Of a DNA stretch of 64,000 nucleotides, positions 22,156 through 51,964 are shown piece by piece. The notes beneath the pieces were generated by a model. It was not told the DNA's origin. It ran no database searches and was given only the letters and a program-made list of their open reading frames with translations. The position numbers and the translations under genes were made by a program. The stretch comes from Candidatus Binataceae bacterium (lineage in GTDB: Bacteria; Desulfobacterota; Binatia; Binatales; Binataceae), in NCBI GenBank assembly GCA_030041155.1, contig JASHOJ010000187.1, positions 1,446 through 65,445 on the forward strand, written 5' to 3'. Within the stretch, counting starts at the first letter, position 1. Every line of letters starts with the position of its first letter.

Positions 22156-22186
22156 CTGTGGAGTTTTGACGCAAAGGAGCTATACA

Positions 22187-23323: not shown

Positions 23324-23605
23324 GTGGACGACTCAAGCCAGCTTGTCGCACAGTTTGAGAAAAACGCCAAAGAGGAAGTTCGAGTCAGCATCGACGAATT
23401 TCGCGGGCGAAAGATCATCAATATGCGAGTGTATTACCGGTCCGATAGCGGCAAGTGGCTGCCTGGCAAACAGGGGCTTGCGTTGGCTGTTGATCGCTAC
23501 CGTGATCTCGCCGATGCCGTTCTAAGGCTTGGCGAACGGCTGCAGTCGCAAGGCCTGTTGCCAAACGCCTCGATCTCGACCGGCTCACGGACAGAGGGCA
23601 AATAG
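23324..23605 (+). CDS. PC4-like (transcriptional coactivator p15 / YdbC-like) ssDNA-binding protein
   Basis: 'VRVSIDEFRGRKIINMRVYYRSDSGKWLPGKQGLALAVDRYRDLADAV' aligns by eye with human PC4 '[48 protein letters not shown]'. Confidence 0.55.
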   Translation: MDDSSQLVAQFEKNAKEEVRVSIDEFRGRKIINMRVYYRSDSGKWLPGKQGLALAVDRYRDLADAVLRLGERLQSQGLLPNASISTGSRTEGK

Positions 23606-23615
23606 GGGACGGCCT

Positions 23616-33200: not shown

Positions 33201-34017
33201 TGGTAAAAGCAATCCTCGCTTTACGCACGTGGAGTTCTCCGGGCGACCTGATCGCTCGTTCAGCTTTGGCCCTGGCGCCTTCCGCGAAGAAGGGCAGCCA
33301 TATCTTGAACTTGCTTACGCGATAACTGTCCACAAAGCACAAGGTAGCGACTTTGACACAGTGATTCTTGTGCTGCCGATGCAAAGCAGGTTGCTCTCTC
33401 GAGAGATGCTATACACGGCGCTGACCCGACAGAAGAGAAGAATCTGGATCCTGCATCAGGGGCCACTTGATAGCCTGTTGGCTTACCGCCATTACTCGTT
33501 CTCCGATATTGCAGCACGCTTCACGAACCTCCTACGCGAGCATCGACCACAGCAAGTGCCCAACCCAGTCGGCCTCCCGTCGGGTCTCCTGTCATTAAGC
33601 AGAGGGTTCCTCGAAGAACGCCTAGTCCATAGAACAGTTCGCGGTGAGATGGTTAGCTCTAAGTCGGAGCTCGCGATTGCCAATATTTTGTACTTACTCG
33701 AACGAGAGGGGCATTTGACATACGTAGTGGAGCCTCCATTGCCTTTTGCTGATAACGCAAAAGGCCGTTGGGCGGACTTTCAGATTAAATGTCGCAGCGG
33801 GACCTGGTATTGGGAGCACTGCGGAATGATGGATCACGAGAGCTATCGGCGGCGTTGGAAGCGGAAGGAGAGGCTATACCAGGAGAACGGCTTCACGCGT
33901 TACTCCGACGAGAATCCGTCTGGACACCTGATAGTCACAGAGGACGGATCGGGCCAGGGTCTGGACTCGCAGGCTATCGCCCTTCTGGCGCGCAAGCTCT
34001 TTGTCTCAGCGGATTAG
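30229..34017 (+). CDS. SF1 (RecD/Dda-like) helicase with unknown N-terminal domain and C-terminal DUF559/Vsr-like endonuclease fold
   Basis: Walker A 'LVGPAGTGKTTVLE', Walker B 'CIVDESSMM', 'YAITVHKAQGSDFDTVILVL' (SF1 motif VI region). C-terminal 'ELAIANILYLLEREGHLTYVVEP...ADFQIKCRSGTWYWEHCG' resembles DUF559/very-short-patch-repair nuclease domains. Confidence 0.7.
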   Translation: MPTPYVRHVSVRVPWQDAVWNGHVCDDPLANSSCLALRLIAENRDDEVEQGLAKEAFDGLSPEQMPPCLRSSAAFLSPHSYTFKSVMEYSKWSRDHKHILPRSVHLPAFGALLIPYRWMLKESGFQIAESLELDAHAEREPNRPSWLVNTSWVQHQDNQRTLLDAFAKPLLEDETLVFFYAPRTPLCDDERRALLGVALLQKKSDLVEYPYEGGNPNGRLQAMVWERPIQHSLRPRRKKGTGFSGGFVMPYHEVLALAERDRTVDPAEFVAFVPNDVRVQFSYGSEHVSHGVAATVLTASRNALEKIGTKLEGPWTSYISWIDERLSRLWRLQGPAPGLGVTLSALHKGFNGTLFAVALSDVLGENEDPWSVVDRVLSGAQDAPPGAPKITTVLRRRWANVKTDPKRLAALKLLARFELTNDQADRAVNDSEPARLLGNPYVLYEDDRKSFDRVSFATIDRGLYPGAEIAAAHPLSAECDRSLDEPDNPLRLRAACVHILEEAAAQGDTILPADRVKDACEKLTLSRPLPLDGELLDIFRDDFRPVIQVGGERTKPTAQLERYVHYREIIEQAVKSRLKSKPKRVVVDWKASLIRKFGKPRPGDVDELRARQEKEVALDRLTASRIATLVGPAGTGKTTVLELLLQQDAVVGTRVHLLAPTGKARVRLAQETNRPGEGETIAQFLLALERYDKVTGRYFPNPSAAKAEATTCIVDESSMMTEDMLAAITDAIPDSCRLILVGDPYQLPPIGAGCPFVDIIEFLRHNHAEAIGELTVPRRQDTSSQDGRRTTPLERSDVQLAAIFSGRALLPGEDEIAARILTSADDEFVKCRRWDQTAELPSLLRTIFKKEFSANDDTLQSKFEEFLGAVTNQKGYLNFENGCSDGASDWQILCVTKTQPGGSIHLNRHIKETYRSEWLEKAIESNHVPHFRDWFRFIKPRGPEQITYGDKVICVRNHFRGPWIYAERTRGPEDEYIANGETGIVVGQCAYGKSNPRFTHVEFSGRPDRSFSFGPGAFREEGQPYLELAYAITVHKAQGSDFDTVILVLPMQSRLLSREMLYTALTRQKRRIWILHQGPLDSLLAYRHYSFSDIAARFTNLLREHRPQQVPNPVGLPSGLLSLSRGFLEERLVHRTVRGEMVSSKSELAIANILYLLEREGHLTYVVEPPLPFADNAKGRWADFQIKCRSGTWYWEHCGMMDHESYRRRWKRKERLYQENGFTRYSDENPSGHLIVTEDGSGQGLDSQAIALLARKLFVSAD

Positions 34018-34152: not shown

Positions 34153-35298
34153 ATGGGGATTGCGAGCTATCAAGAAGACGATTTTGAGCGCTATACAGAC
34201 GCTCACTGGCGGGAGCTTAAATCCGCGCCCCAGGACCGACTTTATTTCTGCGATGTCTGTCGGGCTGAGTTCGCGAGCGAAGAGCAACGTGATCTACACC
34301 GGAGCGAGGTGCACTTGGCCGCGATTCCGCTGCTGCTGCTTGGAAATGTGGCGGCCCCCCACGAAATCCGGATCCGCAATCACAAGATGGCGGAGCAAGT
34401 CGGATTTCAAAACTGTCGCAAGCTTTCGGTTGCTCGCGACGGCCTTAGGCCGGTGCCCTACACCCCGACCCGACTGAAAGCCGAACTCGCGAAGGCCAAC
34501 CAGAGCCACTACCTGGTCCGTCCAGATGGTAGCGATGAGGAATACGTGATCTCCGTCCAGATTCCGGAAGCAGCGGTGCTGCGCGAAATTGATAGGACAT
34601 TCGTCGAATTGCTAGCAGTCGAAGCGCCGCGCGTTCAGGACATTGCCCGCTTCCGCGAAGTTGCCGCATCCATCGGTCGGGTCGGCGAATACAGCGGTGC
34701 GTTAGCTGATTACGTTATGGGCACGATCATCAAGGATCGGGATCACGCGCGCGGCGCCACGCTCGATTTTAATGAGTACAAGCCGAAGTACGAGTCCGCG
34801 CGCGCCATCCTTTTTGATTATGTGAAGGACGAGAGCCACCGCCCACCCGTCCCAGAGGCGGTCTGCGCGTCCATCAATTTTGGTCTTAACCAGTTTGACG
34901 GAACCTATCGTCCCGTCGGGATTCGGCTTCTCGACGACTGTGTCAGGTTTCTACTGCCACTTCTCGGTCCGACTACCAAGCTGCCAGACTTCACGCTCGT
35001 GTCACCCAGCCGGCATGGTGCCCCGATCTGTCCGCTCGATGGTGGCACGCATCATGTGCTGCAGGCCTTCGAGCGGATCAGCCTCAGCTCCGGTCGGTCA
35101 TTAGACGTGCTTCGGGAAGAGGCGGAAAAGGCCGAAAGCACCCTGCTTTCCGAGTATGACCGTGCGAAGCTTTACACGTTTACGGCGGTGGGACTTTTAA
35201 AGGCGGGCGATCGCAGCTCCTCTAAAAAGATACTCGCGCATCTCGTGAACGATTTTACTTTTAGCCGATGGGCCGAAGCTCAACTCTATTCCGCATGA
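34153..35298 (+). CDS. Hypothetical protein with N-terminal C2H2-type zinc finger
   Basis: 'YFCDVCRAEFASEEQRDLHRSEVH' is a perfect C-x2-C-x12-H-x4-H pattern. 381 aa, first gene of a coupled trio. Confidence 0.5.
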   Translation: MGIASYQEDDFERYTDAHWRELKSAPQDRLYFCDVCRAEFASEEQRDLHRSEVHLAAIPLLLLGNVAAPHEIRIRNHKMAEQVGFQNCRKLSVARDGLRPVPYTPTRLKAELAKANQSHYLVRPDGSDEEYVISVQIPEAAVLREIDRTFVELLAVEAPRVQDIARFREVAASIGRVGEYSGALADYVMGTIIKDRDHARGATLDFNEYKPKYESARAILFDYVKDESHRPPVPEAVCASINFGLNQFDGTYRPVGIRLLDDCVRFLLPLLGPTTKLPDFTLVSPSRHGAPICPLDGGTHHVLQAFERISLSSGRSLDVLREEAEKAESTLLSEYDRAKLYTFTAVGLLKAGDRSSSKKILAHLVNDFTFSRWAEAQLYSA

Positions 35299-36407
35299 AT
35301 GACAAGAATATCCAGCAAAACGCTGCTGAAAAGACGGCTGCCGGCACCCGAGACAGCTCGCAGGCACACGATGATAGCTCTCACGCCGAAGGACCGTCAT
35401 CCCCCAGGCTGAATCAATCGGATGTCGGGGGTGCCCACATTCCTTCGGGACCGAGCCCAATGTCGGCTCCATCGCTTACAGGTTATTACTCAGCGCGGCG
35501 CGGCCAGCCGGGGGCCCTCGTTAAGGCGCTTCGCCTGGGACCCGGCACAGGGTTTCCGGATACCGAGCGACAAACAATTCTCGCCGATATCAGCCGACTT
35601 GATCCGTATCTAGCGAAGTCTGTCACTCTGGCCCAAGCTGCAACGGACGTGGCAAAAGATCGGGCCGTCTTTGATTGGATCGGTGAACTCGTCGTTTACG
35701 AACTCCGAGGTCATTGGGCGCCGGAAGCGGGCCTCTCCGCCGCAGAAACGTTCGATGAGATCTCCCGCTCGATACGCGCCCAGATGCAGCGAAAGGAAGC
35801 TCGCAAAAAGGGCTTCAACCTGCTGCTAACCGCACTCGCCTGGCTTGCGCCTCGCGGCCTCCAGCCCGAGGACGCTCTGAGAGCGATCGAACACGCTCTC
35901 ACCGTTGCCAAGCGGAGCAGCATTACAAGCGACGAGCGGCAGCGCCAAGCGATGGCAGAGCTGGTGAAGATCAAAGCCAGCCCCAAGCTTCTCAAGGCGT
36001 TGCTCCAGATTCTCGCTCCCTGGCGCACGCGTACTCTCGAGGTCGAAGCACAAGCCGCCGCGCACCGCGAAGAAGTGGCCGCCCTAAATTCCCGAATACA
36101 AGCGTTGGAAGGACGCGTTACGGAATCCAGGGAACTGACGACAAATCTCGAGGCGCGACTGGCGGATCACGGCCGTCTGCTTGAAGACCGTGAGCGTAGG
36201 CTAAGCACACAGCACAATCTTGCCCAATCGCAGCTGGCCCTTACTAGGGGAACGATTAACGGTTGGCTCGAAAACGAAGTGCGACCGCGCCTGGCAGATG
36301 CATTGGATGCGGTCGAGTGCGAGCCCCCGCGCCACGAGGTCTTGCGCGAGCGCTTAAAGGCGGTCCTGGCTTTGCTTGATCAGAAAAAAGGGGGGCACTG
36401 GGGATGA
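35295..36407 (+). CDS. Hypothetical protein, disordered N-terminus plus long C-terminal coiled coil
   Basis: ATGA overlap with the upstream stop. The C-terminal ~150 aa have heptad-like spacing (..AALNSRIQALEGRVTESRELTTNLEARLADHGRLLEDRERRL..). Confidence 0.45.
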   Translation: MNDKNIQQNAAEKTAAGTRDSSQAHDDSSHAEGPSSPRLNQSDVGGAHIPSGPSPMSAPSLTGYYSARRGQPGALVKALRLGPGTGFPDTERQTILADISRLDPYLAKSVTLAQAATDVAKDRAVFDWIGELVVYELRGHWAPEAGLSAAETFDEISRSIRAQMQRKEARKKGFNLLLTALAWLAPRGLQPEDALRAIEHALTVAKRSSITSDERQRQAMAELVKIKASPKLLKALLQILAPWRTRTLEVEAQAAAHREEVAALNSRIQALEGRVTESRELTTNLEARLADHGRLLEDRERRLSTQHNLAQSQLALTRGTINGWLENEVRPRLADALDAVECEPPRHEVLRERLKAVLALLDQKKGGHWG

Positions 36408-38260
36408 TTTTCGGCCTCGACTTTGGAACCACGAATTCGCTGGTGGCTCTGGTACAGGGTGACCGCGTAATCCATTTTCTGGACGGCAACGAGCCACATC
36501 CATCCGTAGTGTGGTACCGAAGCGGTGACGCTACTGTCGTTGGCCGGATCGCAAAAGAAAACCTGGGGTCGCGCCAGAGTGGCGTCATCGGTGACTTTGT
36601 GCGGTCGCCGAAATTCAATCTGGGAAAGGGCCATCCGGTGTATGTAGCTGGCCGGAACTTAGCGGCCAGCGATGTTGTGTCAGAAATTTTAGCGTTTCTA
36701 CGCAATGACGTAATGCGAGAAGAGCGCGGCCTGAAGGATATCAGTTTCGAGCGCGCCGTGGTCACAATTCCAGTCACCATGCATGGTCCGGCTCGGCAAG
36801 AATTACGCGAAGCCGCGCACAAGGCCGGACTTCGAATCCACCAGTTCGTTCACGAACCGCTCGCCGCTCTTTATGGCCATCTCCGCGCGCATCCTGATTT
36901 CAGACGCCGAATCGCCGAGCTCGAGAACAAAGTTGCTCTGGTTTTCGATTGGGGCGGTGGCACTTTGGATCTGACGCTCTGCAAGTTCATGCGCGGCAGT
37001 TTGGTACAGATCGCGAATCGTGGTGATACCGACGTAGGAGGCGACCGGTTCGACGAGGCAATCGCCGATTGGGTGCGTGAACGCCACAGAAGGCAACACT
37101 CCTTGCAGTCTGGCCGAGAGGACACCGAACTCGCCAAGGCCCGATTGATCGAGCAGTGTGAGCTCGCAAAAAAACAGCTTTCAATTCAAAACAGTACATT
37201 CATCTTTGTCAGAGACTTCATTCAGCGGTCTAGTCCAGAACACACACTCCAGGTAGCCATAACGGCCGACGACCTGAGCACTATTAGCGATCGCCTCGTC
37301 ACTCAGGGTCTCGAAAATATCGACAAGCTTCTGTCTTCGGCCGGCTATGATCAAAGGTCAATTGCATTTTGTCTGGCGACCGGAGGAATGTGCCGCGTTC
37401 CCTTTATTCAGCGGCGTCTTCAAGAAAAATTTGGCTTCGACCGTGTTGAAGCTCCGGAACATGCCGAATGGCTTATCGCCGACGGCGCAGCCTGGATCGC
37501 TCATGATGGCCTTCCCCTGGAACTGGCCAAGCCTTTCGAGCTTTATCACGCGGACAACACATACGTGCCGATACTGCACGACAAGCGAAGACTCCCAATC
37601 GAGAACGTCCAAGAATCGCCGGTATCGCTCCAGGTCTATTGCGTCGACCCGAGAGACGGTCTCGCTAAGCTCCAATTTGCGCGCCCAACCTGGCCGGGTC
37701 GCACGTCGCCTTCTGATCCGCGCCAGATCTATACGACCCAGACTCTCAAGGTCGACCCCAATGCTCCGCCATTTGTCGAACGAATCATGCTCGACATCAC
37801 GATCGATCACAACCTGGTTGTCAGCGTTCGCGCCAGATCTGGTGAGGACGACAAACTTACTGAGGTGCATGACCTGGAATTCGGCTTGCATCTCGGCCCA
37901 GCGTCAAACGCGGGGTCGTCCGATCGGGCCGGAGGAGGTTCGTCCAGTAACGACCCGCTACCCACTGCAAGCAATCAGACCATAGGGGCGGTCCGGATTC
38001 GATCCAACGTCCTTCTTCAGAGTCATGAAATAAATGGCGGTTATCGCTGGGACTTGGTTCCAGGTGACATTGTCGAGCAATACTCTCCTCGCTACTGGCC
38101 AATCGTCCTTAACGCGCGCCAAATAGGCGAGAAAATGTATTACGTCCCGTGTGCATTGTGTCACCAAGGAATCTACGAAATTATGCTTCGAGGATGCAGC
38201 GAACCACGATGTCCGGAGAGCCGCAGATCCCATCCCACGACCCAGTCGGCGCGGCACTAA
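36404..38260 (+). CDS. Hsp70/DnaK-like actin-fold ATPase (non-canonical, 618 aa)
   Basis: 'MIFGLDFGTTNSLVAL' phosphate-1 motif, 'LVFDWGGGTLDLTL' (DLGGGTFD-like), 'FCLATGGMCRVPFIQ' adenosine motif. The C-terminal 230 aa are unlike a DnaK substrate-binding domain. ATGA overlap with the upstream gene. Confidence 0.75.
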   Translation: MIFGLDFGTTNSLVALVQGDRVIHFLDGNEPHPSVVWYRSGDATVVGRIAKENLGSRQSGVIGDFVRSPKFNLGKGHPVYVAGRNLAASDVVSEILAFLRNDVMREERGLKDISFERAVVTIPVTMHGPARQELREAAHKAGLRIHQFVHEPLAALYGHLRAHPDFRRRIAELENKVALVFDWGGGTLDLTLCKFMRGSLVQIANRGDTDVGGDRFDEAIADWVRERHRRQHSLQSGREDTELAKARLIEQCELAKKQLSIQNSTFIFVRDFIQRSSPEHTLQVAITADDLSTISDRLVTQGLENIDKLLSSAGYDQRSIAFCLATGGMCRVPFIQRRLQEKFGFDRVEAPEHAEWLIADGAAWIAHDGLPLELAKPFELYHADNTYVPILHDKRRLPIENVQESPVSLQVYCVDPRDGLAKLQFARPTWPGRTSPSDPRQIYTTQTLKVDPNAPPFVERIMLDITIDHNLVVSVRARSGEDDKLTEVHDLEFGLHLGPASNAGSSDRAGGGSSSNDPLPTASNQTIGAVRIRSNVLLQSHEINGGYRWDLVPGDIVEQYSPRYWPIVLNARQIGEKMYYVPCALCHQGIYEIMLRGCSEPRCPESRRSHPTTQSARH

Positions 38261-38303: not shown

Positions 38304-39119
38304 ATGCCAGCTACAACACCGAATATCCGTCGGGAGCTTGCTCGTCGCTACCGTGACTGTCCAATCGATTGTCCGATGTTTCAAGACGAGCTGATTTCCA
38401 CGCTGAGCGATTTCTTCGGTGTGTTTCACTCTTTGTTGGAGCCAGACAAAGTGTTTTGGTTTCGAGGCCATCCACGACTGACGCATTCACTCGCCCCTTC
38501 AGCGCTTCGATACACCGAGCAAGAGAAGAGGGATACGGCGCTCCGTCTCGTAGCTGATATGAAGCGCTTCCTGGACATGAAGTTAGGCCGCCCGCCGGCT
38601 CCCGACGATGACCTCGGGTGGATTCAGGTTGCGCAGCATTATGGACTACCCACACGACTGTTAGACTGGACTCAGAATGCAGCGGTGGCACTCTTTTTCT
38701 CGTGCAGCAAAGACATCGATTCGGATGGCTTGGTCGTAATCCTTAATCCTATCGAACTCAATCAAAGTGCCGATCCTCGCTCGCCACGCGTGTTCAATAT
38801 GGAACGAGATGCCAGAATCATCAGACCATACTTGAAGCTCGACGGCAGAATACGACCTTCGGGCAAGCGCACAATCGCAATCAACCCAACCTGGAACACC
38901 GAAAGAATCGCTCTACAGCAAGGTGTCTTTACTCTCCACGGTTCGCGAACCTTTGCGTTGGATCGCGGTCAGGCAAGCTCCCTCCTATACGTACCTATAT
39001 TGCGCGAGCACAAAAGCGCTCTATTAAACGAGTTGGAGCGTGTTGGTATCGGTGAGATGTTCATTTTTCCGGAACCGGAACATGTGTGCTCTCACCTCCG
39101 GCGAGGTGCCGGATTGTAA
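38304..39119 (+). CDS. FRG-domain protein
   Basis: 'KVFWFRGHPRLTHSLAPSALR' is the FRG signature. 271 aa. Confidence 0.6.
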   Translation: MPATTPNIRRELARRYRDCPIDCPMFQDELISTLSDFFGVFHSLLEPDKVFWFRGHPRLTHSLAPSALRYTEQEKRDTALRLVADMKRFLDMKLGRPPAPDDDLGWIQVAQHYGLPTRLLDWTQNAAVALFFSCSKDIDSDGLVVILNPIELNQSADPRSPRVFNMERDARIIRPYLKLDGRIRPSGKRTIAINPTWNTERIALQQGVFTLHGSRTFALDRGQASSLLYVPILREHKSALLNELERVGIGEMFIFPEPEHVCSHLRRGAGL

Positions 39120-41511: not shown

Positions 41512-41540
41512 TTGACGAAGTGGTAAGGCCACCCTAAACT
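41512..41540 (+). promoter_or_regulatory. Putative promoter of second MTase operon
   Basis: TTGACG (41512-41517), a 17-nt spacer, then TAAACT (41535-41540), 35 nt upstream of the TTG start at 41575. Confidence 0.3.
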
Positions 41541-41574
41541 GGGGTTAGCCCCAACCTGTATGGGGTAAATCAAC

Positions 41575-42042
41575 TTGAATTATACGCTTCAGCAGCTTCG
41601 GGACATTGTCGGTATTTCGGTGGAAACGTTCCGACATTGGCAGCGGGTAATCCCCGCTTTCTCTGCTCGAAAAGGACGTCGGGCGCGTTTTTCAACGGGC
41701 GATCTTATCGCCGCCGCGATAATTCGAGTCCTCACCGACGACTGCGGAATAAAAATTGGCCGACTGAAGGCAGCGAATCAGATCGTCTCGCTGTGCAATG
41801 ATAAATCATGGGCTCTTGATCGCAAGACCCTGGTGGTGAACCCAGCCGAAGGTAGTTGCCAGGTCGTTGGAGATCGGGGCGCTGGGGGCGACGGCTTCGT
41901 TGTCCTCTGCCCTCTCAAACCCATAATGAGCGAGCTGCGAGGCAAACTGTTGGACTCCGAAACGACCCGGGCACAGCGAGCCCTCGCCTTTCCAGTGATC
42001 GAGGTGAAGAGGAAAAACCAGACCTGGAGACGCGGACCATGA
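41575..42042 (+). CDS. MerR/AlpA-like HTH protein (putative regulator)
   Basis: TTG start. 'YTLQQLRDIVGISVETFRHWQR' resembles MerR-superfamily HTHs. ATGA overlap with the downstream MTase. Confidence 0.45.
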   Translation: MNYTLQQLRDIVGISVETFRHWQRVIPAFSARKGRRARFSTGDLIAAAIIRVLTDDCGIKIGRLKAANQIVSLCNDKSWALDRKTLVVNPAEGSCQVVGDRGAGGDGFVVLCPLKPIMSELRGKLLDSETTRAQRALAFPVIEVKRKNQTWRRGP

Positions 42043-45000
42043 ATGGCAGGCATCTCCTGTCCGACGAGTGGAAGGTGCGGCTGGGTCTTTTGAGTCGCTC
42101 CGCCGCTGAATTCTACGAGGAGAACGAATCCGTCGGCGACGTACCATATGCGGGAGCTATCCGTACCGCACTCCGGGAGTTGAACCTCTCGGGATTGTTC
42201 TGCGTGCAGGGCGTTCCGACGATCGTCTTCCTTTCCTTGGATGAATACGACCCGGAGAAGCTCATTGCCGTACATGCCGCTCTCTGGAACCAAGGGCTTG
42301 CGAGCTTGCTTATGGTCGCAAGCGGCGACACACTGCGAGCCTTTTCGTTGGCGAAGAAGCCACTCAGAGAAACTGGTGACGAGTTCGAAAAGCGCTGTCT
42401 GGTGGAAACGCTGGAGGCAGTCGTTGATGTTCTCAGGATACAGAGCGTCTTGTCCGCAGCTGAGTCCGGCAGGCTGTGGCAAGACGAGCCGGAATATTTT
42501 CAGCCGAAGGAACGGGTCGACCAAGTCTTGCTCGACAACCTGACAGAATCCCACCGTCAGCTGTGTGACTTGAGTCTGCCATCTCAAGCCGCTCAAGCTC
42601 TCCTCATACAGGCGATGTTTATCGCCTACTTGGAAGATCGCGGCATAACGTCCCGAGAGTATTTTGCTAGGGGCACTGGCGGTATGGCAGACACCTTCCT
42701 TGAGCTGCTTCGGACCGGGAAGGTTAGCTCACTCAGCTCGCTCTTCGGAAAACTTCGAGAAGACTTCAATGGCGACCTGTTCGTGGCGCCCTGTTCTTTC
42801 GATAGCGGCGCCAAGGCTCCGGCATTGAACAGCGCACATCTTGATGTACTTTCACGGTTCCGCAGCGGTGAGGAGGAAATGGTCGGTGGCCAGCGCAGAT
42901 TTTGGGGATACGACTTCAAATACATCCCGATAGAACTCATCAGTGCTGTCTACGATCGCTTTCTTGAGGAGGAAAAGCAGGAGCGCCGCGAGCAGGGAGC
43001 CTACTACACTCCGATGTTCCTCGCGGATGCAATTGTTTCCCAGGTCTGGGAACTTCTGCCCACAGAATTGAAGGTTAAGTGCACAGTCCTCGATCCCGCA
43101 TGCGGTTCTGGGGTCTTCCTTGTACGGTTTTTTCAAAGATCCTGCGAGTTTTGGCGTTCGACTCACCAAACGAAAACCATCCGGTGGGACGTCCTGCGCT
43201 CAATCTTAGATCGAATCAATGGTTGGGACGTGAACGAGAACGCGGTGCGGGTCGCAGTCTTCTCTCTATATGTGGCGCTAATGGAGGAGGTATCTCCGCC
43301 AGATCTTCAGCTGCTCCTGAAACGAGGAAGAATCCTGCCGGGGCTATGGACTCGAACCATGGTGTGCCAGGACTTCTTCTCAGTACGTGAAGATCGCACG
43401 AATAATTTCGACGTTATTGTTGGCAATCCTCCGTGGAGCAGCCGTCAAGGCTCGGAACGCAGCCACGTGAAGTGGTCCGAAGCGGCGCAGCTCCCGCTAC
43501 CCGCCAAGGAAGCGGCGTGGGCTTTTGCATGGAAAAGCCTTCGTCACATATCACAGGCCGGTATTGTCGGTTTGCTACTTCCCGCCATGGGATTCCTCCA
43601 CAACCAAGCGGAGGACGCGATCGAAGCGCGCAATCAATTCCTAGTAGATGCGCGGATCCGGCGAATCGTCAACTTTGCTGACCTGCGTTTTTTGCTTTTC
43701 GACAAAGCGCAACGAGCAGCCGCGCTCTTAGTCTTCGCGCAAAACTCTGAGTCGAAGCCTGTGTATCGTATTGAATACTGGGTGCCTAAGGCGCGCCCGG
43801 GTCTGTTTATAAAGCGTGTTATTCTGGTAAGTACCGCCGACAAGGCGTCGTTTACCTCCGAGGAAGCCGTTGCTGATCCACTGCTGTTTACAAGGAGAAT
43901 GTGGATGCACGATTCGGAGGCGAAGCTTTTCAACTATTTGAGGCACCTGACACCGCTGAGCCGCTTGGTGAAGGAACATCGCGAGGCACGAACGGAAGAA
44001 CCGTCCACCGGCCTATGGATAATCGGCCAAGGGTTTCAGCCTTTCAACGAGCCCACGAAAAGCGCTCCCAAAGCCAAGGAGAGCGACTATGTAGGCAAGG
44101 TCCCCGATCTGCCGGTAAAACGAATGACCCGGCTCGCGCAGTCAGCAACGGGATTGGCTCCGTGGAGAGATAATTTAGTTCGTAGAAAAGGCTACGAGCG
44201 GGGATTCCACGGGCCCCGTGTGTTGGTCTCTCGCGCAGTTGAAGTCTCGGACAGCAGATTGCGAGCTTCGTATGTAGAGGCGCCGCTGACCTTCCAGGAT
44301 ATCATTCAGGCAATCGCCGTTCCGATAGATGATGTCCCTCGCGCCAAGGTTCTCGCGGCTTTCCTGAATAGTCGGCTTGCAACCTGGTTTGCGTTTCACG
44401 GAACTTCGTCGTTCTCTTCCGATCGTCAGGAAGTCAAGGAAAATCAACTACTGACTTTGCCGTTCCCAGCTGCAGATGAAGTAGAGAAGCCCCAACGGGC
44501 TAGAGCCGCGGCTCAAGGGTTAATCAGTCTCGTCGATGCTTATTTCGGAGACGGGAACACCAGTTTCCGACTCGTCGGTGAGGACAACCCGATTCCTACC
44601 GAATTGGACGACCTTACGTACGACTACTTCGGTCTATCCAAAATCGAGCGAACTCTCGTTGACGACGTTGTTGCGAACATAATCCCGGGGATCCAACCTA
44701 CCCGGACTCGATACCCGGACCTATGGAGGCCCGCTGACGTCTCGGACCGACACCAGTACGCGAGTCTCCTTCTGAGCTTACTCAGAGAGTGGTTCGATCA
44801 AACCTGCGTTGTCGGCGCAAAGTTAGTGGCCAGAAATTCAGACTTGGCAATTTTGAAGCTGTCGCTCGAAAGCAGGAATGGAACTCCAGAGTACACCGAA
44901 GAGGCTGGCGACTCGTTCACCGATGTGCTCACGCGGCTTTCGCGAGAGGTAAACCAGCCGTTGGATCGCAATTTTCAGGTAGTTCCGAATTTCCGGATTT

Positions 45001-45128
45001 TCATCGGCAGAGACCTCTATCTTATCAAGCCGACGCAGAAGCGATATTGGCTAAAGTCCACCGCGATAGCTGACTCGGATTCGATCGCGATGGATCTGCA
45101 GACCGGCGCGGAATTACACCTCGAGTAA
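42039..45128 (+). CDS. N6-adenine DNA methyltransferase, gamma-class, PglX/Type IIG-like (second copy)
   Basis: 'GAYYTPMFLADAIVSQV' (motif X), 'LDPACGSGVFLVRF' (motif I), 'VIVGNPPWSS' (motif IV at 43425-43436). ~560 aa C-terminal putative TRD. Internal Met start at 42039; the track ORF starts at 41856. Confidence 0.8.
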   Translation: MNGRHLLSDEWKVRLGLLSRSAAEFYEENESVGDVPYAGAIRTALRELNLSGLFCVQGVPTIVFLSLDEYDPEKLIAVHAALWNQGLASLLMVASGDTLRAFSLAKKPLRETGDEFEKRCLVETLEAVVDVLRIQSVLSAAESGRLWQDEPEYFQPKERVDQVLLDNLTESHRQLCDLSLPSQAAQALLIQAMFIAYLEDRGITSREYFARGTGGMADTFLELLRTGKVSSLSSLFGKLREDFNGDLFVAPCSFDSGAKAPALNSAHLDVLSRFRSGEEEMVGGQRRFWGYDFKYIPIELISAVYDRFLEEEKQERREQGAYYTPMFLADAIVSQVWELLPTELKVKCTVLDPACGSGVFLVRFFQRSCEFWRSTHQTKTIRWDVLRSILDRINGWDVNENAVRVAVFSLYVALMEEVSPPDLQLLLKRGRILPGLWTRTMVCQDFFSVREDRTNNFDVIVGNPPWSSRQGSERSHVKWSEAAQLPLPAKEAAWAFAWKSLRHISQAGIVGLLLPAMGFLHNQAEDAIEARNQFLVDARIRRIVNFADLRFLLFDKAQRAAALLVFAQNSESKPVYRIEYWVPKARPGLFIKRVILVSTADKASFTSEEAVADPLLFTRRMWMHDSEAKLFNYLRHLTPLSRLVKEHREARTEEPSTGLWIIGQGFQPFNEPTKSAPKAKESDYVGKVPDLPVKRMTRLAQSATGLAPWRDNLVRRKGYERGFHGPRVLVSRAVEVSDSRLRASYVEAPLTFQDIIQAIAVPIDDVPRAKVLAAFLNSRLATWFAFHGTSSFSSDRQEVKENQLLTLPFPAADEVEKPQRARAAAQGLISLVDAYFGDGNTSFRLVGEDNPIPTELDDLTYDYFGLSKIERTLVDDVVANIIPGIQPTRTRYPDLWRPADVSDRHQYASLLLSLLREWFDQTCVVGAKLVARNSDLAILKLSLESRNGTPEYTEEAGDSFTDVLTRLSREVNQPLDRNFQVVPNFRIFIGRDLYLIKPTQKRYWLKSTAIADSDSIAMDLQTGAELHLE

Positions 45129-45138
45129 AGGTAAGACA

Positions 45139-45801
45139 ATGCCGGTGGGAGATGCCGAGGAGTGGCGGAAGCGATTCATAAGAATGGACGAGCGCCTACT
45201 CGCACGCATTTCCGAAATCTGGCCGTCGTGCCTGGCAACACTGCGCGGGCAACCTGAAGAGAACACGATAACGATGACCTTAGTGGACGTACTGTCCCGC
45301 GACATCGTCGCTCGTCGAATTGCCTACTTTGAGTACCAGTTTGAACCGTTCGGATACAGGCCGGACGGAGTCGTCTTCAGCAAAGGAAAGGTGGATTTGG
45401 CTGCGATTCTAGATCAGGACCGCAACAAATACTTGGCCTACGAGTGCAAGCGATTGAACGTCATCTATAGCGGCACCACGCGCTTGCTCGCGGCTGACTA
45501 CGTGAAAGATGGCACCATGCGATTTGTGACCGAGCAATACGCTGATGGGCTTCCGCTCGGTGGTATGCTGGGTTACGTTCTGAACGGCGACACGCAGTCT
45601 GCAATCGATGGCGTAAAAAAGGCAATCACCAAGAAGCGCGCGCGGCTCGGTCTTCGGTCCGGACCCCGGGAGATACCACCTATAGCCGGACTTAAAAGAT
45701 TCTCAACGGGACATGCTCGGCCCGCGGGCTCTACGATTGAACTCTTACACACTTTTCTGCCGTTTTCGGCATCGAAAGGCGAGCTAACAATCGGCTATTA
45801 A
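45139..45801 (+). CDS. Putative PD-(D/E)xK restriction-endonuclease-like protein
   Basis: 'YRPDGVVFSKGKVDLAAILDQDRNKYLAYECKRL' has a PD...D...ECK arrangement. Starts 11 nt after the MTase stop. Confidence 0.45.
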   Translation: MPVGDAEEWRKRFIRMDERLLARISEIWPSCLATLRGQPEENTITMTLVDVLSRDIVARRIAYFEYQFEPFGYRPDGVVFSKGKVDLAAILDQDRNKYLAYECKRLNVIYSGTTRLLAADYVKDGTMRFVTEQYADGLPLGGMLGYVLNGDTQSAIDGVKKAITKKRARLGLRSGPREIPPIAGLKRFSTGHARPAGSTIELLHTFLPFSASKGELTIGY

Positions 45802-47646: not shown

Positions 47647-48753
47647 TTGCCGATCTCGGAAGAAATCATCGGAGAGGCGACTGCTCGCTATGAGCGGGAG
47701 CGTGACCGCTATCTCAAACTCGCCGCCCGGGTTGCTGACATTTGTCGGTCTGAAATCGTGGAGGCGAACGCAATACGCGCTCAAGTCACCTGGCGCGCGA
47801 AGAGTGCAAAAAGTTTTGCAGACAAGCTCAGACGTTTTTCAAAAAGGCCCGAAAAGAAATGCGAGACCGTCGACAAAGTTTTCGTTATGGTTAGCGACTT
47901 GGCTGGTGTTCGCATCGCGACCTACCAGCCAGAGACGGAATCGCGCGTCACACAGGAGATTCAAAAGCGCTTTCGAGGGACAGATGGACTTGATGTTAAG
48001 CCGGAAAAAAAAGACAAGGTTGCACAAGGCGGATTTTATCGTGCGACGCACTGTCAGGTGGTGCTTCCAGATGACGACCTGGTGGGGACCTATGAAAACC
48101 TAAAGGCCACGAGTTGTGAAATCCAAGTCTGCTCCATGATGGCGCATGTCTGGAATGAAATTGAGCACGACATCGGCTACAAACCCGAGGGAACGGGCCC
48201 TCAAGAGAAAGAGCACGGCCTTCTTCAAGCACTTGGCCACCTGACTCGTTCGGGCGATGAGATCATCACACGGCTGCTGGAAGCCAATACGGAACGTCTA
48301 CAAGAGCAGCAGGGCGAATTTGAAGATGTGTTTGAGTTTGTCGCCAGGCTCAAACCGCACTTCCCAGATACTGACTTCACTCTATACTCCGGACAGCTCT
48401 TCGATGAGGCGCAGGCGCTTGGATTGTCCTCTTTCGAGAAGTTGAAGGCGGCGCTGGGAGGAGATGCGAACTTCACTCCGGAAGTCGCCAGGAAGAAGCT
48501 GGCAGAATTCAACGACTATCTGACGAAGCGCCAGGAACCAGAGTGGCTTCTCAACGAAGAATCATCAGATGTCGTGCTGATTTTGCTTCTCGAGAAGTTT
48601 GCAAAGCAGATAGAAGAGAACCACCCGGCCGGCCGCGGCATGGGTCGTCCTCCAAGAATCAGAAGCATTGCGACGCGGTACCGACAGTACCGCAACGATC
48701 TCGAGCAAATCACTGTGGCTTCTGACGGAGTCGCCGAGCCTCACCCCGGATGA
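47647..48753 (+). CDS. RelA/SpoT-domain protein, fused toxSAS-antitoxin (CapRel-like) candidate
   Basis: TTG start after an AAGGAGGAGGG RBS. 'DLAGVRIATY', 'GFYRATHCQVVLP', 'EIQVCSMMAHVWNEIEHDIGYK' are synthetase-domain motifs of small alarmone synthetases. 368 aa with a ~190 aa C-terminal extension. Confidence 0.6.
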   Translation: MPISEEIIGEATARYERERDRYLKLAARVADICRSEIVEANAIRAQVTWRAKSAKSFADKLRRFSKRPEKKCETVDKVFVMVSDLAGVRIATYQPETESRVTQEIQKRFRGTDGLDVKPEKKDKVAQGGFYRATHCQVVLPDDDLVGTYENLKATSCEIQVCSMMAHVWNEIEHDIGYKPEGTGPQEKEHGLLQALGHLTRSGDEIITRLLEANTERLQEQQGEFEDVFEFVARLKPHFPDTDFTLYSGQLFDEAQALGLSSFEKLKAALGGDANFTPEVARKKLAEFNDYLTKRQEPEWLLNEESSDVVLILLLEKFAKQIEENHPAGRGMGRPPRIRSIATRYRQYRNDLEQITVASDGVAEPHPG

Positions 48754-49450: not shown

Positions 49451-50494
49451 GTGCTCAATCGGCGCGGGCCAACAAGACCGGGCGAAAAGAGCCCCAGCTA
49501 CTGGGGACCTCCGGCTCCCCGGTGCTACAATTGGTTTGATGTGGATTTACTAAAGAATGCCATCAGCTCCATAAAAGTCGGGGTCGAAGATTCCCAATCG
49601 ACTGAACACGAGCGTTTACTCTCGGCAGTTCGCAACATCTACGCCGGCATCCTCCTTCTTTACAAAGAGAAGTTGCGCCGACTCTCGCCTCCAAACAGCG
49701 ACGAGGCCTTACTCAAAGCGATAATCCTTCCCAGGCTGGACGCCGACGGCAAGGTAATCTTCATGGGCCGAGGAAGGAAGACGGTTGACGTGCAGCAGAT
49801 GAAGGAGCGTTTCGCTTCGCTCGGAATCGCAACCGACTGGGGCCGGTTCGACCGCATCAGCGGAGTCCGGAACGATCTCGAACATTACTATGCGAACGTC
49901 AGCGAGGCTCAACTAAGGGGACTGATCTCTGATGCATTTGTCCTGGTACGCGACTTCGTGGTCAGCCAGCTAGACGAGGATCCGAGAGCGCTCCTAGGCG
50001 AAGACGCTTGGCAGGAGATGCTCGCCGTTTCTGAAGTTTTCGAGAAAGAGCGCAGAGAGTGTCAAGAATTGCTGGAGTCGATCGAGTGGGCGTCCGATGC
50101 TCTATGTCGTGGAGTGCTAAGCTTAGCATGCGAGAATTGTGGCTCTCCCCTGCTTCGAGCTGGCCCCGCAGCAGCGGCCCAGCAGGATGAGGTCGGGTTG
50201 GAGTGTCGTGCCTGCGGAGAGCGCGAAGAACGAGAATCTTTTGTGCCGCGGGCCATCGCCTCAGCTTTGGAAAATGAACTGTACCTGTCGCACTCGGACG
50301 GTAACGAGACGCCTTACGTCGCGTGCCCCGAATGCTCCGTTGAAGCGTATGTTATCGAAGAAGGCCGCTGCGCGCTCTGCGGGCATGAGGCCGACCATTC
50401 ATGCTCGAGTTGCGGTGGTAACATTCCACCCGAGGAGTTGGACTCCTCTCCGCTTTGCGGCTGGTGCGCACACATGATGTCGAAGGACGATTAG
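49451..50494 (+). CDS. Hypothetical protein with HEPN-like R-x4-H motif and C-terminal zinc ribbons
   Basis: GTG start. 'RISGVRNDLEHYY' (49868-49885). C-terminal CENCG...CRACG...CPECS...CALCG...CSSCGG...CGWC clusters. Confidence 0.4.
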   Translation: MLNRRGPTRPGEKSPSYWGPPAPRCYNWFDVDLLKNAISSIKVGVEDSQSTEHERLLSAVRNIYAGILLLYKEKLRRLSPPNSDEALLKAIILPRLDADGKVIFMGRGRKTVDVQQMKERFASLGIATDWGRFDRISGVRNDLEHYYANVSEAQLRGLISDAFVLVRDFVVSQLDEDPRALLGEDAWQEMLAVSEVFEKERRECQELLESIEWASDALCRGVLSLACENCGSPLLRAGPAAAAQQDEVGLECRACGEREERESFVPRAIASALENELYLSHSDGNETPYVACPECSVEAYVIEEGRCALCGHEADHSCSSCGGNIPPEELDSSPLCGWCAHMMSKDD

Positions 50495-50836: not shown

Positions 50837-51964
50837 TCAGTCGGGTTTTCGCGCCGGACTTTCGGCTGAATCCTCGTCTACATCGTCAAAGCCGGGCGGA
50901 AGTGCGGACTCGCGCTCCCGATCTTGTGCAGACCGCCGATTTCTCAGACGTTCGATAAGGCCGCGCCTCATTGAAGTCAGTTCCGCAGGCAGATTGTTCA
51001 CAGCCTCATCCTCGAAGCTTAGGTTCAGGTAATCCAACGCCAGGCTGGCCACTGCCTCGCCTTGACGGAAATCGCGCTTTCGTTTCATCGGGTCGCGCGT
51101 CGGATGCGTCGAAAGCCAGAGTTTGTGCAGGGCAAAAACACGCGGGTCCGGGACGACGAATCGTACCGGGTAACCATTTTCCGCGATTACAACTTGCGTC
51201 GTTCGTGGCGCGTCGGCTATCCAGTCCAACCCCTGCAAGGGTTCCGGTACGAGGTCTTCATTGCTGCCGAGACTCATAGCTGGCCGATTCTCTGAGAGCG
51301 GCGCACGGATGAGGTCGACCATGAAGCCCTTGTTGTTCACGGCGCGGAAAGAACGTTGGCGCGCGGGGCGAAAGGTCTTATCGACCTTTTGAATCAACCC
51401 CAGCAGTCCGGAACTTCGAACGTCACCAGCGATCTCAAGCTCCGATTTTGTGTGTAGGAGCGTATCGAGGTCGTTCGTTTGAAGAAGGCCGGCCTTAAGC
51501 TGAACGCCGGCAGCCATCTCGTAGGCATAAATGGCGTGGCTGCCGAGGACGATCAGGTGTGTGCCCAAGACGCCCTTGGAGTCGAGCAGTCTTACGATAT
51601 CGGCGGCGATCCTCGGAACGCGATTGACCCCAGCCGCGACGCAGAACTTGGATCGCGCAGCGATCTCGCCTTCGAGGGCTTTGATCTGCTCTCTAAGTTC
51701 GTTCTTCCTTGCGGTGAACCGCTGAAGGACTTCCTCCGTTTTCGCCGAGCGCGGGCCCAGCGACTGTTGGTGCCCCTCGCGGTCGAGCGTCTTTACCAGA
51801 TACTCTTTGGAGCCAACCCGCTTCCAATGGAGGCCACCCCTGAATTTCGCGTACTCTTGTTGGAGATCAGTGAAGTGTTGATAGAGCTGGACAGCATCGA
51901 CCGCTACCCTCCGCTGCTCCGCAGTTAATTCCTTGAATTTCAGGAGTTTTCCTCTCCAAATCAA
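50837..51964 (-). CDS. Nucleotidyltransferase-fold protein (AbiEii/GSU2403-like, putative)
   Basis: 'LIVLGSHAIYAYE...LLQTNDLDTLL' fits the GS...DxD minimal nucleotidyltransferase pattern. Family placement is tentative. Confidence 0.35.
   Translation of the reverse strand: MIWRGKLLKFKELTAEQRRVAVDAVQLYQHFTDLQQEYAKFRGGLHWKRVGSKEYLVKTLDREGHQQSLGPRSAKTEEVLQRFTARKNELREQIKALEGEIAARSKFCVAAGVNRVPRIAADIVRLLDSKGVLGTHLIVLGSHAIYAYEMAAGVQLKAGLLQTNDLDTLLHTKSELEIAGDVRSSGLLGLIQKVDKTFRPARQRSFRAVNNKGFMVDLIRAPLSENRPAMSLGSNEDLVPEPLQGLDWIADAPRTTQVVIAENGYPVRFVVPDPRVFALHKLWLSTHPTRDPMKRKRDFRQGEAVASLALDYLNLSFEDEAVNNLPAELTSMRRGLIERLRNRRSAQDRERESALPPGFDDVDEDSAESPARKPD

What the first reader, a model, noticed from the sequence alone, without database searches (positions are those of the whole stretch)
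41512..45801. Second PglX-like MTase operon with MerR-like HTH and a separately encoded small PD-(D/E)xK nuclease (split Type IIG/IIL-like R-M?)
The HTH gene overlaps the MTase start (ATGA at 42039-42042). The 220-aa PD...D...ECK protein starts 11 nt after the MTase stop. The MTase is ~1030 aa, with NPPW at 43425-43436 and a long C-terminal TRD-like region. This is far larger than Type II MTases and resembles Type IIG/IIL or BREX enzymes. Those carry the nuclease in the same polypeptide (IIG/IIL) or have none (BREX). A trans-encoded nuclease subunit would be an unusual arrangement.
Basis: partly seen in the sequence, partly recalled or inferred. Interest (0 to 1): 0.55.

Follow-up and report, generated by a model that had tools for sequence, protein, structure and literature searches.

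The report
Split restriction-modification cassette, separate small nuclease
Three tightly coupled genes (a small DNA-binding protein, a 1029-aa adenine methyltransferase with its own DNA-recognition region, and a 220-aa nuclease of an undescribed family) most likely form a restriction-modification system whose cutting subunit is a separate protein; the general idea was reported in 2016, but I found no description of this version.

Summary
The HTH gene starts at 41575, not 41512. The MTase runs 42039-45128 (1029 aa, ATGA overlap with the HTH stop, NPPW at 43425-43436). The 220-aa ORF runs 45139-45801.

The N-terminal 140 residues of the MTase contain no invariant acidic residue, so it has no intact nuclease domain. 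The 220-aa protein matches no Pfam, NCBIfam, PADLOC or PDB entry. In 79 homologues down to 27% identity, only seven columns are invariant, and four of them are E41, D86, E102 and K104, a PD-(D/E)xK catalytic set. The predicted secondary-structure order fits that fold.

The gene pair is essentially obligate:
- 84/84 loci found through the nuclease have the MTase directly upstream, and the stop and start codons overlap in 78.
- 52/53 loci found through the MTase have the nuclease downstream. The one exception has an IS insertion.
- The HTH gene precedes the MTase in about 80-90% of loci, behind a conserved GGGG-N4-CCCC palindrome.

Best reading: a split Type IIG-like R-M system without a translocase, spread by mobile elements. 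It is not BREX, MADS or the MmeI family. Blow et al. (2016) described split Type IIG-like systems with other nucleases, so this is a new variant of a known kind. No activity has been tested.

The parts
41512..41540 (+). Sigma-70-like promoter candidate (TTGACG, 17 nt, TAAACT), 35 nt upstream of the HTH start codon
   Evidence: Consensus scan, (9 of 12 matches). This is a consensus match only.
41541..41552 (+). Palindrome GGGGTTAGCCCC (GGGG-N4-CCCC), candidate operator for the HTH protein, directly after the -10-like hexamer and 34 nt before the start codon
   Evidence: It is the only exact match in the 64-kb window. The same element lies at -34 or -50 in 43/53 unique upstream regions of related loci, with at most 1 mismatch (shuffles: mean 2.8, max 9). 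Binding by the HTH protein is inferred.
41575..42042 (+). 155-aa protein with an N-terminal HTH domain (TTG start); probable controller, or a third subunit
   Evidence: Pfam MerR_1 (E 0.0038) and HTH_17 (E 0.0044), residues 3-65, both below the curated cut-offs. Homologues lie upstream of the MTase in 59/84 and 64/71 loci. The ATGA overlap with the MTase start occurs in 52/59.
42039..45128 (+). 1029-aa N6-adenine DNA methyltransferase with a C-terminal target-recognition-like region (M.S subunit)
   Evidence: Pfam N6_Mtase 4.2e-18 (aa 299-577) and Eco57I 4.8e-11. PADLOC REase_MTase_IIG PDLC03623 1.9e-80 over aa 48-1022. Closest solved structure by sequence is CamA, 7lni. At least 2814 homologues (only 8000 candidates were scored).
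42039..42488 (+). MTase N-terminal domain (aa 1-150): conserved, with no catalytic acidic residues; possibly a degenerate nuclease-like fold and a docking site
   Evidence: No invariant D/E before E142 in 27 homologues. Mean pairwise identity is 0.62, similar to the rest of the protein. AF2 model pLDDT 77. Foldseek hits are all non-significant (E>0.18), but the top ones are PD-(D/E)xK folds: EcoR124I HsdR, TT1808, 9y1l, Hjc, RecU. No sequence-level match to PDB or Pfam.
43092..43112 (+). SAM-binding motif I, DPACGSG (aa 352-358)
   Evidence: D352, P353, A354, C355, S357 and G358 are invariant and G356 is nearly invariant (>=90%) in alignment A2.
43425..43436 (+). Catalytic motif IV, NPPW (aa 463-466)
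   Evidence: Invariant in alignment A2. Coordinates computed from the ORF start.
43779..45125 (+). C-terminal ~450 aa, putative target recognition region
   Evidence: No Pfam family. Covered by PADLOC Type IIG model PDLC03623. Mean pairwise identity 0.61 (aa 581-800) and 0.53 (aa 801-1029). The function is inferred from position in the architecture.
45139..45801 (+). 220-aa stand-alone putative PD-(D/E)xK nuclease (R subunit). Catalytic codons: E41 45259-45261, D86 45394-45396, E102 45442-45444, K104 45448-45450
   Evidence: Invariant E41, D86, E102 and K104 in 79 homologues. AF2 pLDDT 83, with helix 41-54, strand 85-90 starting at D86, strand 98-105 carrying ExK, helix 118-131 and strand 140-147. 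Sub-threshold Pfam hits in distant members to PDDEXK_9 (best E 0.0032) and HSDR_N_2. 1268 clusters in a profile search; the 150 listed are all stand-alone.

Best explanation
This is a three-gene, split Type IIG-like restriction-modification cassette.

Shown by sequence:
- One co-directional operon (41575-45801) encodes an HTH protein, a 1029-aa gamma-class N6-adenine methyltransferase with intact SAM-binding (DPACGSG) and catalytic (NPPW) motifs and a long C-terminal region, and a 220-aa protein with an invariant E...D...ExK set.
- The three genes are translationally coupled in nearly all relatives.
- The MTase and the small protein are found together almost without exception.

Inferred:
- The C-terminal region of the MTase supplies the only sequence specificity. 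It methylates host sites.
- The small protein is the catalytic endonuclease. It has no evident specificity domain of its own. It is recruited to unmethylated sites by binding the MTase, most plausibly through the conserved, catalytically dead N-terminal domain, which sits where fused Type IIG/IIL enzymes carry their nuclease.
- The HTH protein binds the conserved GGGG-N4-CCCC palindrome next to the promoter and autoregulates the operon, as controller proteins do in Type II systems. It may also be part of the complex.
- No helicase or translocase is involved.

The cassette travels on plasmids, integrative elements and transposons.
For: - MTase identity and intact motifs.
- No conserved acidic residue in MTase aa 1-141, and no nuclease family match.
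- The N-terminal domain is as conserved as the catalytic domain (0.62 against 0.70), so it is functional.
- Small protein: E41, D86, E102 and K104 are four of the seven invariant columns at 27-58% identity. The predicted alpha-beta-beta-beta-alpha-beta order places D86 at a strand start and ExK inside the next strand. There are recurrent weak PDDEXK_9 and HSDR_N_2 hits, and a weak profile alignment of D...ECK to the PDB 'restriction endonuclease' 9wuf.
- Synteny: 84/84 nuclease-seeded loci have the MTase directly upstream. 52/53 MTase-seeded metagenome loci have the nuclease downstream, and the one exception carries an IS630-like insertion. A member at 28% identity keeps the arrangement.
- Coupling: the MTase stop and nuclease start overlap by 1 nt in 73 and by 4 nt in 5 of 84 loci. 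The HTH stop and MTase start overlap as ATGA in 52/59. In one locus the HTH is fused in frame to the MTase.
- Conserved palindrome at a fixed distance upstream of the HTH gene.
- Mobile contexts: relaxase, T4CP and integrase; TniQ, TniB and transposase; plasmids.
- Precedent for split Type IIG-like systems: PMC4752239, section 10 and S4 Fig.
Against: - No activity has been tested for methylation, cleavage or defence.
- Foldseek gave no significant match for the small protein (best E 0.055 against PDB and 0.007 against BFVD). The profile search against PDB sequences and the Pfam scan also gave nothing significant. The nuclease assignment therefore rests on the motif and the predicted topology.
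- The nuclease-like fold of the MTase N-terminus rests on non-significant hits only.
- In this window the MTase-nuclease junction is a 10-nt gap rather than the usual overlap.
- A distant branch of the small-protein family sits next to SEC-C proteins without an MTase, so the fold is not tied to this partner alone.
- The C-terminal region of the MTase is fairly conserved (0.53-0.61). That is less variable than one might expect for a diversifying specificity domain.
Confidence: 0.68

Rival explanations
1. The cassette is a methylation-based defence that does not work by simple restriction. The small nuclease is a latent toxin or effector held in check by the MTase complex and released on infection (an abortive-infection or guard logic), or it acts on a substrate other than unmethylated target sites.
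For: - The cassette lies in a defence island: DndB, PLD-SNF2, PDC-S68, PDC-S15 and PDC-S64.
- Tight stoichiometric coupling would suit a toxin and its inhibitor.
- The small-protein fold also pairs with non-MTase partners.
- The C-terminal region of the MTase is rather conserved.
Against: - The MTase keeps all catalytic motifs under strong conservation. That is expected if methylation protects the host genome.
- No sensor or ATPase component is conserved in the cassette.
- The classical R-M logic explains every part without extra assumptions.
Confidence: 0.12
2. The MTase is an orphan or regulatory methyltransferase. The 220-aa protein is not a nuclease in this context, or it has another role in the mobile element, such as DNA repair or processing. 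The HTH protein is then simply a transcription factor of the element.
For: - The small protein matches no curated family or solved structure.
- RefSeq annotates the pair as 'hypothetical protein' and 'N-6 DNA methylase'.
- The cassette is often found in mobile elements.
Against: - The four residues of the nuclease motif are among the seven invariant columns of the family.
- Near-100% reciprocal synteny and codon overlap with the MTase, across phyla and across unrelated flanking genes, show that the pair is the selected unit, not the surrounding element.
- Only 1 hit in 2.9 million viral contigs.
Confidence: 0.08
3. The small protein is a modification-dependent (Type IV, Mrr-like) nuclease that merely travels with the MTase. 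This is what the UniProt name given to one homologue suggests.
For: UniRef names the Nitrospina watsonii homologue 'Restriction endonuclease type IV Mrr domain-containing protein'.
Against: - No Mrr_cat (PF04471) match in any of the 79 members scanned, even at E<=1.
- A methyl-dependent nuclease translationally coupled to an active adenine MTase would attack its own host, unless it were specific for a different modification.
- The protein has no evident modified-base-binding domain.
Confidence: 0.04
4. The MTase is a canonical single-chain Type IIG enzyme, as the PADLOC/REBASE-derived model name implies, with an unrecognised active nuclease in its N-terminus. The downstream gene would then be accessory.
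For: - The full-length match to PADLOC 'REase_MTase_IIG' PDLC03623 covers aa 48-1022.
- The N-terminal domain gives weak structural hits to restriction-endonuclease-like folds.
Against: - No invariant Asp or Glu, and Lys only at K12, in aa 1-141 across 27 homologues. The position that would read 'PD' is an invariant P60-T61.
- No sequence match to any nuclease family.
- An accessory role would not explain the near-absolute retention of the downstream gene with its invariant catalytic residues.
Confidence: 0.05

Closest known systems
Split 'Type IIG-like' R-M systems of Blow et al. 2016 (AchA6III, OspHL35III, MexAMORF1192P; PMC4752239, section 10 and S4 Fig)
   Same: One polypeptide carries an m6A MTase plus a single recognition region, in an MmeI-like architecture without the N-terminal PD-ExK motif. 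The endonuclease is encoded by a separate adjacent gene.
   Different: The published examples pair the MTase with a PLD nuclease-translocase fusion, with a GIY-YIG nuclease plus a translocase, or with an HNH nuclease plus two translocases. Here the partner is a small stand-alone PD-(D/E)xK-type protein, there is no translocase, and an HTH gene is translationally coupled upstream. I could not check whether REBASE already lists this family.
MmeI family (Type IIL / Type IIG single-chain enzymes)
   Same: The domain order is the same: N-terminal domain, helical linker, gamma-class N6A MTase starting near residue 300, then a long C-terminal recognition region. There is a weak match to Pfam MmeI_Mtase (E 2.8e-5).
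   Different: The MmeI_Mtase score (23.9 bits) is below the cut-off (27). There is no match to MmeI_N, MmeI_hel, MmeI_TRD or MmeI_C. The N-terminal domain lacks D...ExK. The nuclease is a separate protein.
BREX PglX (BrxX) methyltransferase
   Same: A large N6A MTase with a C-terminal recognition region and no nuclease activity of its own. There are local matches to PglX models over the SAM-binding region.
   Different: Scores are far below the NCBIfam cut-offs (48 against 400 bits, and lower). No PglZ, BrxC or BrxL matched among the 17 neighbouring ORFs of 22-57 kb that were scanned. BREX has no dedicated small nuclease.
C-protein-controlled Type II R-M systems
   Same: A small HTH gene is the first gene of the operon and overlaps the next gene. 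A conserved palindrome lies at the promoter.
   Different: Classical C proteins are Xre-type proteins of about 80-100 aa. This protein has 155 aa, a MerR/HTH_17-like N-terminus (sub-threshold) and an extra C-terminal domain of about 90 aa. In one locus it is fused to the MTase.
MADS (methylation-associated defence system, 8 genes)
   Same: Weak PADLOC hits of the HTH protein to mad1 (E 0.0016) and of the MTase to mad2 (6.9e-17).
   Different: MADS detection requires MAD6-8 (10.1101/2023.03.30.534895), and these are absent here. The NCBIfam MAD2 score is 25.7 against a cut-off of 720.

Membership tests
Type IIG restriction enzymes (strict sense: R and M in one polypeptide) | Endonuclease catalytic motif in the same chain as the MTase | tested here: not met
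   No invariant D/E in aa 1-141 of 27 homologues. P60-T61 stands where a 'PD' could be. No nuclease family or PDB sequence match.
Type IIG restriction enzymes (strict sense: R and M in one polypeptide) | Gamma-class m6A MTase with a single recognition region serving the whole system | tested here: inconclusive
   MTase motifs I and IV and Pfam N6_Mtase/Eco57I are present. There is no separate S gene in the cassette. That the C-terminal 450 aa recognises DNA is inferred, not shown.
Split Type IIG-like systems (Blow et al. 2016) | MTase/TRD protein lacking the nuclease motif, plus a separately encoded adjacent endonuclease | tested here: met
   Definition taken from PMC4752239.
Split Type IIG-like systems (Blow et al. 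2016) | Associated DNA translocase or helicase (present in all three published examples) | tested here: not met
   No helicase gene is conserved in the cassette. The flanking genes differ between loci.
MmeI family / Type IIL | Pfam MmeI_N, MmeI_hel, MmeI_Mtase, MmeI_TRD and MmeI_C domains | tested here: not met
   Only MmeI_Mtase matches, at 23.9 bits against a cut-off of 27. The other four models give no match at E<=0.01.
MmeI family / Type IIL | Methylation of one strand only; cleavage about 20 nt from the site | not testable with these tools
   Needs methylome data and cleavage assays.
BREX PglX | Score above the NCBIfam BREX MTase cut-offs | tested here: not met
   BREX-2: 48.3 against 400. 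BREX-6: 28.3 against 900. BREX-1: 19.4 against 500.
BREX PglX | Neighbouring PglZ, BrxC/PglY, BrxA/B/L genes | tested here: not met
   No PglZ, BrxC or BrxL match was listed for the 17 ORFs of 22-57 kb scanned with PADLOC or Pfam. The only BREX-type hit is a weak BrxH helicase match of the PLD-SNF2 protein at 23529-26840. None is conserved in related loci.
MADS | MAD6, MAD7 and MAD8 present; MAD2 equivalog score | tested here: not met
   MAD2 scores 25.7 against 720. Only mad1 and mad2 gave local hits among the neighbours scanned. Requirement taken from 10.1101/2023.03.30.534895.
PD-(D/E)xK nuclease superfamily (220-aa protein) | Conserved E / D / (D/E)xK catalytic residues | tested here: met
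   E41, D86, E102 and K104 are invariant in 79 sequences at 27-58% identity to the window protein.
PD-(D/E)xK nuclease superfamily (220-aa protein) | alpha-beta-beta-beta-alpha-beta core fold, with Asp at the start of strand 2 and ExK in strand 3 | tested here: inconclusive
   The AF2 secondary-structure order fits (pLDDT 83). Foldseek found no significant match in PDB or BFVD.
PD-(D/E)xK nuclease superfamily (220-aa protein) | Significant sequence match to a curated PD-(D/E)xK family | tested here: inconclusive
   Only sub-threshold hits: PDDEXK_9 in 4/79 members (best E 0.0032, 17.9 bits against a cut-off of 25.5) and HSDR_N_2 in 2/79.
R-M controller (C) proteins | Small Xre-type HTH protein that autoregulates through palindromic C-boxes upstream of its own gene | tested here: inconclusive
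   A conserved palindrome lies at a fixed distance upstream. The HTH is MerR/HTH_17-like, not HTH_3, and the protein has 155 aa. Binding was not tested.

The most novel reading that the evidence does not exclude
The cassette defines an uncharacterised, minimal class of R-M system. A sequence-reading MTase keeps a catalytically dead remnant of its own nuclease domain. It uses that remnant as a docking or dimerisation partner for a separately encoded nuclease of a new PD-(D/E)xK family. The co-translated HTH protein could be a third subunit rather than only a regulator; one natural HTH-MTase fusion points that way. If true, this would be a naturally modular 'reader plus detachable cutter' and a snapshot of how fused Type IIG enzymes and multi-subunit systems interconvert.
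Probability: 0.3. Interest if true: 0.6.

Novelty: new variant of a known kind. Interest (0 to 1): 0.5.

Why it matters
If the model is right, three things follow.

- About 1270 clusters (at 50% identity) of proteins now annotated as 'hypothetical' would be the missing restriction subunits of MTases that are currently filed either as orphan 'N-6 DNA methylases' or, wrongly, as single-chain Type IIG enzymes. That would change how R-M content and orphan methyltransferases are counted in genomes.
- A system with one specificity module and a detachable small nuclease, with no translocase, is attractive for engineering programmable cutters. It would also be an intermediate in the evolutionary shuffling between fused and multi-subunit R-M enzymes.
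- The conserved promoter palindrome offers a testable new controller-operator pair.

Tried and rejected
- Sequence and profile searches of the 220-aa protein gave nothing above threshold: Pfam, NCBIfam, PADLOC, and PDB by single profile A1 and broader profile A4.
- Foldseek of its AF2 model against PDB and BFVD gave no significant hit.
- The profile search of 1.84 billion representatives was meant to find fusions of the small protein to MTases. The 150 hits listed are all stand-alone proteins of 80-280 aa. Hits below that were not visible.
- hhalign of the nuclease family against the MTase family tested whether the N-terminal domain is a paralogue of the nuclease. It found no relation.
- The N-terminal domain profile against PDB and Pfam gave nothing.
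- A third homologue search with MTase aa 1-160 was meant to find distant relatives with an intact motif. It returned only fragments of the same family.
- Looking up the 100%-identical MTase (P0121) to name the source organism failed, because it is not on record. The organism remains unknown.
- The supplements of Blow et al. 2016 were searched for hosts that carry the cassette, in order to get a methylated motif. None of the genera searched yielded a usable entry.
- BREX, MADS and MmeI-family membership were considered and rejected on the tests listed above.

Full report
**1. What is in the sequence**

Three co-directional ORFs occupy 41575-45801.
- The first ORF (155 aa) starts at TTG 41575. 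Position 41512 in fact opens a -35-like hexamer of a promoter-like site, TTGACG-17-TAAACT, at 41512-41540.
- The first ORF's TGA overlaps the ATG of the second ORF (ATGA, 42039-42042).
- The second ORF runs to TAA 45128 and encodes 1029 aa.
- After a 10-nt gap, the third ORF (45139-45801) encodes 220 aa.

**2. The methyltransferase**

Family matches:
- Pfam finds N6_Mtase (aa 299-577, 4.2e-18) and Eco57I (4.8e-11). MmeI_Mtase matches only below its cut-off, and no other MmeI domain matches.
- PADLOC's REBASE-derived model 'REase_MTase_IIG' PDLC03623 matches end to end (aa 48-1022, 1.9e-80).
- BREX PglX and MADS MAD2 models score far below their curated cut-offs.
- The closest solved structure by sequence is the orphan adenine MTase CamA, over the catalytic domain only.

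The family is large, with at least 2814 proteins at E<=1e-10 (only 8000 candidates were scored); the listed ones share 52-57% identity over the full length.

In an alignment of 27 members, motif I (DPACGSG; G356 nearly invariant) and motif IV (NPPW) are conserved. The first 141 residues contain no invariant Asp or Glu. Their invariant residues include W11, K12, R20, Q57, P60, T61, N84, Q85, G86, S89, T98 and R100.

This N-terminal domain is nevertheless as conserved as the rest of the protein: mean pairwise identity 0.62, against 0.70 for the MTase domain and 0.53-0.61 for the C-terminal region.

An AF2 model of aa 1-305 (pLDDT 77) gave only non-significant Foldseek hits (E>0.18). The top hits are almost all restriction-endonuclease-like folds: the EcoR124I HsdR nuclease domain, TT1808, 9y1l, Hjc and RecU. 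Sequence profiles of the domain match nothing in PDB or Pfam.

I conclude that the MTase has no intact nuclease domain. It may retain a degenerate nuclease-like fold, but that is a hint and not a result.

**3. The 220-aa protein**

It has no match in Pfam, NCBIfam, PADLOC or PDB sequences. It nevertheless belongs to a sizeable family:
- 328 proteins in the word-indexed search.
- 1268 clusters at 50% identity in the exhaustive profile search. The 150 listed are all stand-alone proteins of 80-280 aa.

In 79 sequences with 27-58% identity to the window protein, only seven columns are invariant: E41, D86, E102, K104, Y121, G125 and Y134. The first four make the E / D / ExK set of PD-(D/E)xK nucleases.

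The AF2 model (pLDDT 83) has:
- a helix starting at E41;
- a strand starting at D86;
- the next strand carrying E102-C-K104;
- then a helix and a further strand.

This is the order of the PD-(D/E)xK core.

Other evidence is weak but consistent:
- Foldseek found nothing significant.
- Distant members give repeated sub-threshold Pfam hits to PDDEXK_9 and HSDR_N_2.
- The family profile aligns its D...ECK segment to the PDB entry 9wuf, 'restriction endonuclease', at E 0.66.

D86 is the conserved Asp. hhalign finds no relation between this family and the MTase.

**4. Linkage**

*Loci seeded with the small protein.* 122 species genomes out of 185,579 encode a relative. They span Alpha-, Gamma- and Deltaproteobacteria, Chlorobi, Spirochaetes, Verrucomicrobia, Gemmatimonadetes, Actinobacteria, Bacteroidetes and Dadabacteria.
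- In all 84 loci held, an MTase homologue lies immediately upstream on the same strand.
- The MTase stop and the nuclease start overlap by 1 nt in 73 loci and by 4 nt in 5.

*Loci seeded the other way, with the MTase N-terminal domain, in metagenome contigs.*
- 52 of 53 evaluable loci have the nuclease downstream.
- The single exception has an IS630-like transposase fragment in its place.

*More distant members.*
- A member at 28% identity keeps the arrangement.
- A still more distant one sits behind SEC-C proteins instead.

*The HTH gene.*
- It is detectable upstream in 59/84 and 64/71 loci.
- Its stop overlaps the MTase start (ATGA) in 52/59.
- In one MAG it reads in frame into the MTase.

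*Contexts.* Flanking genes differ from locus to locus and are often mobile-element genes: relaxase, T4CP and integrase; TniQ, TniB and transposase; small and conjugative plasmids. Only one of 2.9 million viral contigs carries the cassette.

**5. Regulation**

A palindrome GGGG-N4-CCCC lies at -34 or -50 from the HTH start codon in 43 of 53 unique upstream regions, allowing 1 mismatch (mononucleotide shuffles: mean 2.8, max 9).

The window's copy, GGGGTTAGCCCC at 41541-41552, is the only exact match in 64 kb. A single occurrence is not unusual in itself, since about 0.8 are expected by chance. It directly follows the -10-like hexamer.

This fits an operator for the HTH protein, as in C-protein-controlled R-M systems. 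Binding is inferred.

**6. Mechanism proposed**

- The MTase reads the target through its C-terminal region and methylates host sites.
- The small protein is the catalytic cutter. It is recruited to unmethylated sites by the MTase, probably through the conserved but catalytically dead N-terminal domain.
- The HTH protein autoregulates the operon and possibly joins the complex.
- No translocase is involved.

What is shown: gene structure, motifs, conservation, synteny and coupling. What is inferred: complex formation, source of specificity, cleavage and repression.

**7. Comparison with what is known**

Blow et al. 2016 (PMC4752239, section 10 and S4 Fig) described 'Type IIG-like' systems in which an MmeI-like MTase/TRD lacks the PD-ExK motif and the endonuclease is a separate protein. 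Their examples use:
- a PLD nuclease-translocase fusion (AchA6III);
- a GIY-YIG nuclease plus a translocase (OspHL35III);
- an HNH nuclease plus two translocases (MexAMORF1192P).

The present cassette shares the principle but differs in three ways. It uses a small PD-(D/E)xK-type protein of an undescribed family, it has no translocase, and it adds a coupled HTH gene. I found no paper describing it. REBASE could not be consulted.

It is not a member of strict-sense Type IIG, the MmeI family, BREX or MADS on the tests listed in the membership table.

**8. Verdict**

This is a new variant of a known kind, of moderate interest.

Noticed in passing
window 23529-30193: A 1103-aa PLD + SNF2-helicase protein (23529-26840) overlaps the start of a second large Type IIG-like MTase (26822-30193; PADLOC PDLC03610, 3.4e-165). 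This matches the AchA6III-type split Type IIG-like system of Blow et al. 2016. The two MTases in the window are related only over the catalytic motifs (23% identity).
   Followed up: partly
related loci L003, L006, L010, L013, L027, L034, L071 and others, 70-98 nt upstream of the HTH start (absent from the window): A direct repeat GAAC-N7-GAAC occurs in 30/53 unique upstream regions, allowing 1 mismatch (shuffle mean 3.3). It has the form of the alphaproteobacterial LexA (SOS) box as I recall it, so some copies of the cassette may be SOS-regulated. Alternatively it is a second operator.
   Followed up: partly
L005:2414-5998: In one alphaproteobacterial MAG the HTH ORF continues in frame into the MTase, giving an apparent 1194-aa fusion. 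This hints that the HTH protein works physically with the MTase. It could also be an assembly error.
   Followed up: no
L157:5531-5928: This is the only MTase-seeded locus without the nuclease. An IS630-like transposase fragment on the opposite strand lies directly after the MTase stop, which looks like a decayed copy.
   Followed up: yes
L087:4273-6604 and L088: A distant member of the small-nuclease family (P0383) follows SEC-C-motif proteins rather than an MTase. The nuclease module therefore also pairs with other partners.
   Followed up: no
window 34153-38260: Three ORFs with overlapping ends: two of unknown function (381 and 379 aa; no Pfam or PADLOC match) and a 618-aa Hsp70/actin-like ATPase. 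They sit between known defence candidates and may be an uncharacterised defence operon.
   Followed up: no
window 22082-23308, 30229-34017, 38304-39119, 47647-48753, 49451-50494, 50837-51964: The surrounding 30 kb is a defence island. It contains DndB-like (8.7e-125), PDC-S68 with a RecD-like helicase (1262 aa), FRG-domain PDC-S15, a RelA/SpoT-like nucleotidyltransferase, PDC-S64 and NTP_transf_8. G+C drops to 0.52-0.57 across 21-51 kb, against about 0.60 in the flanks.
   Followed up: partly
window 45129-45138: In this window the MTase and nuclease genes are separated by 10 nt, and the MTase C-terminus (…AELHLE) differs from the family consensus (…RSxA). In 78 of 84 related loci the stop and start codons overlap.
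   Followed up: yes
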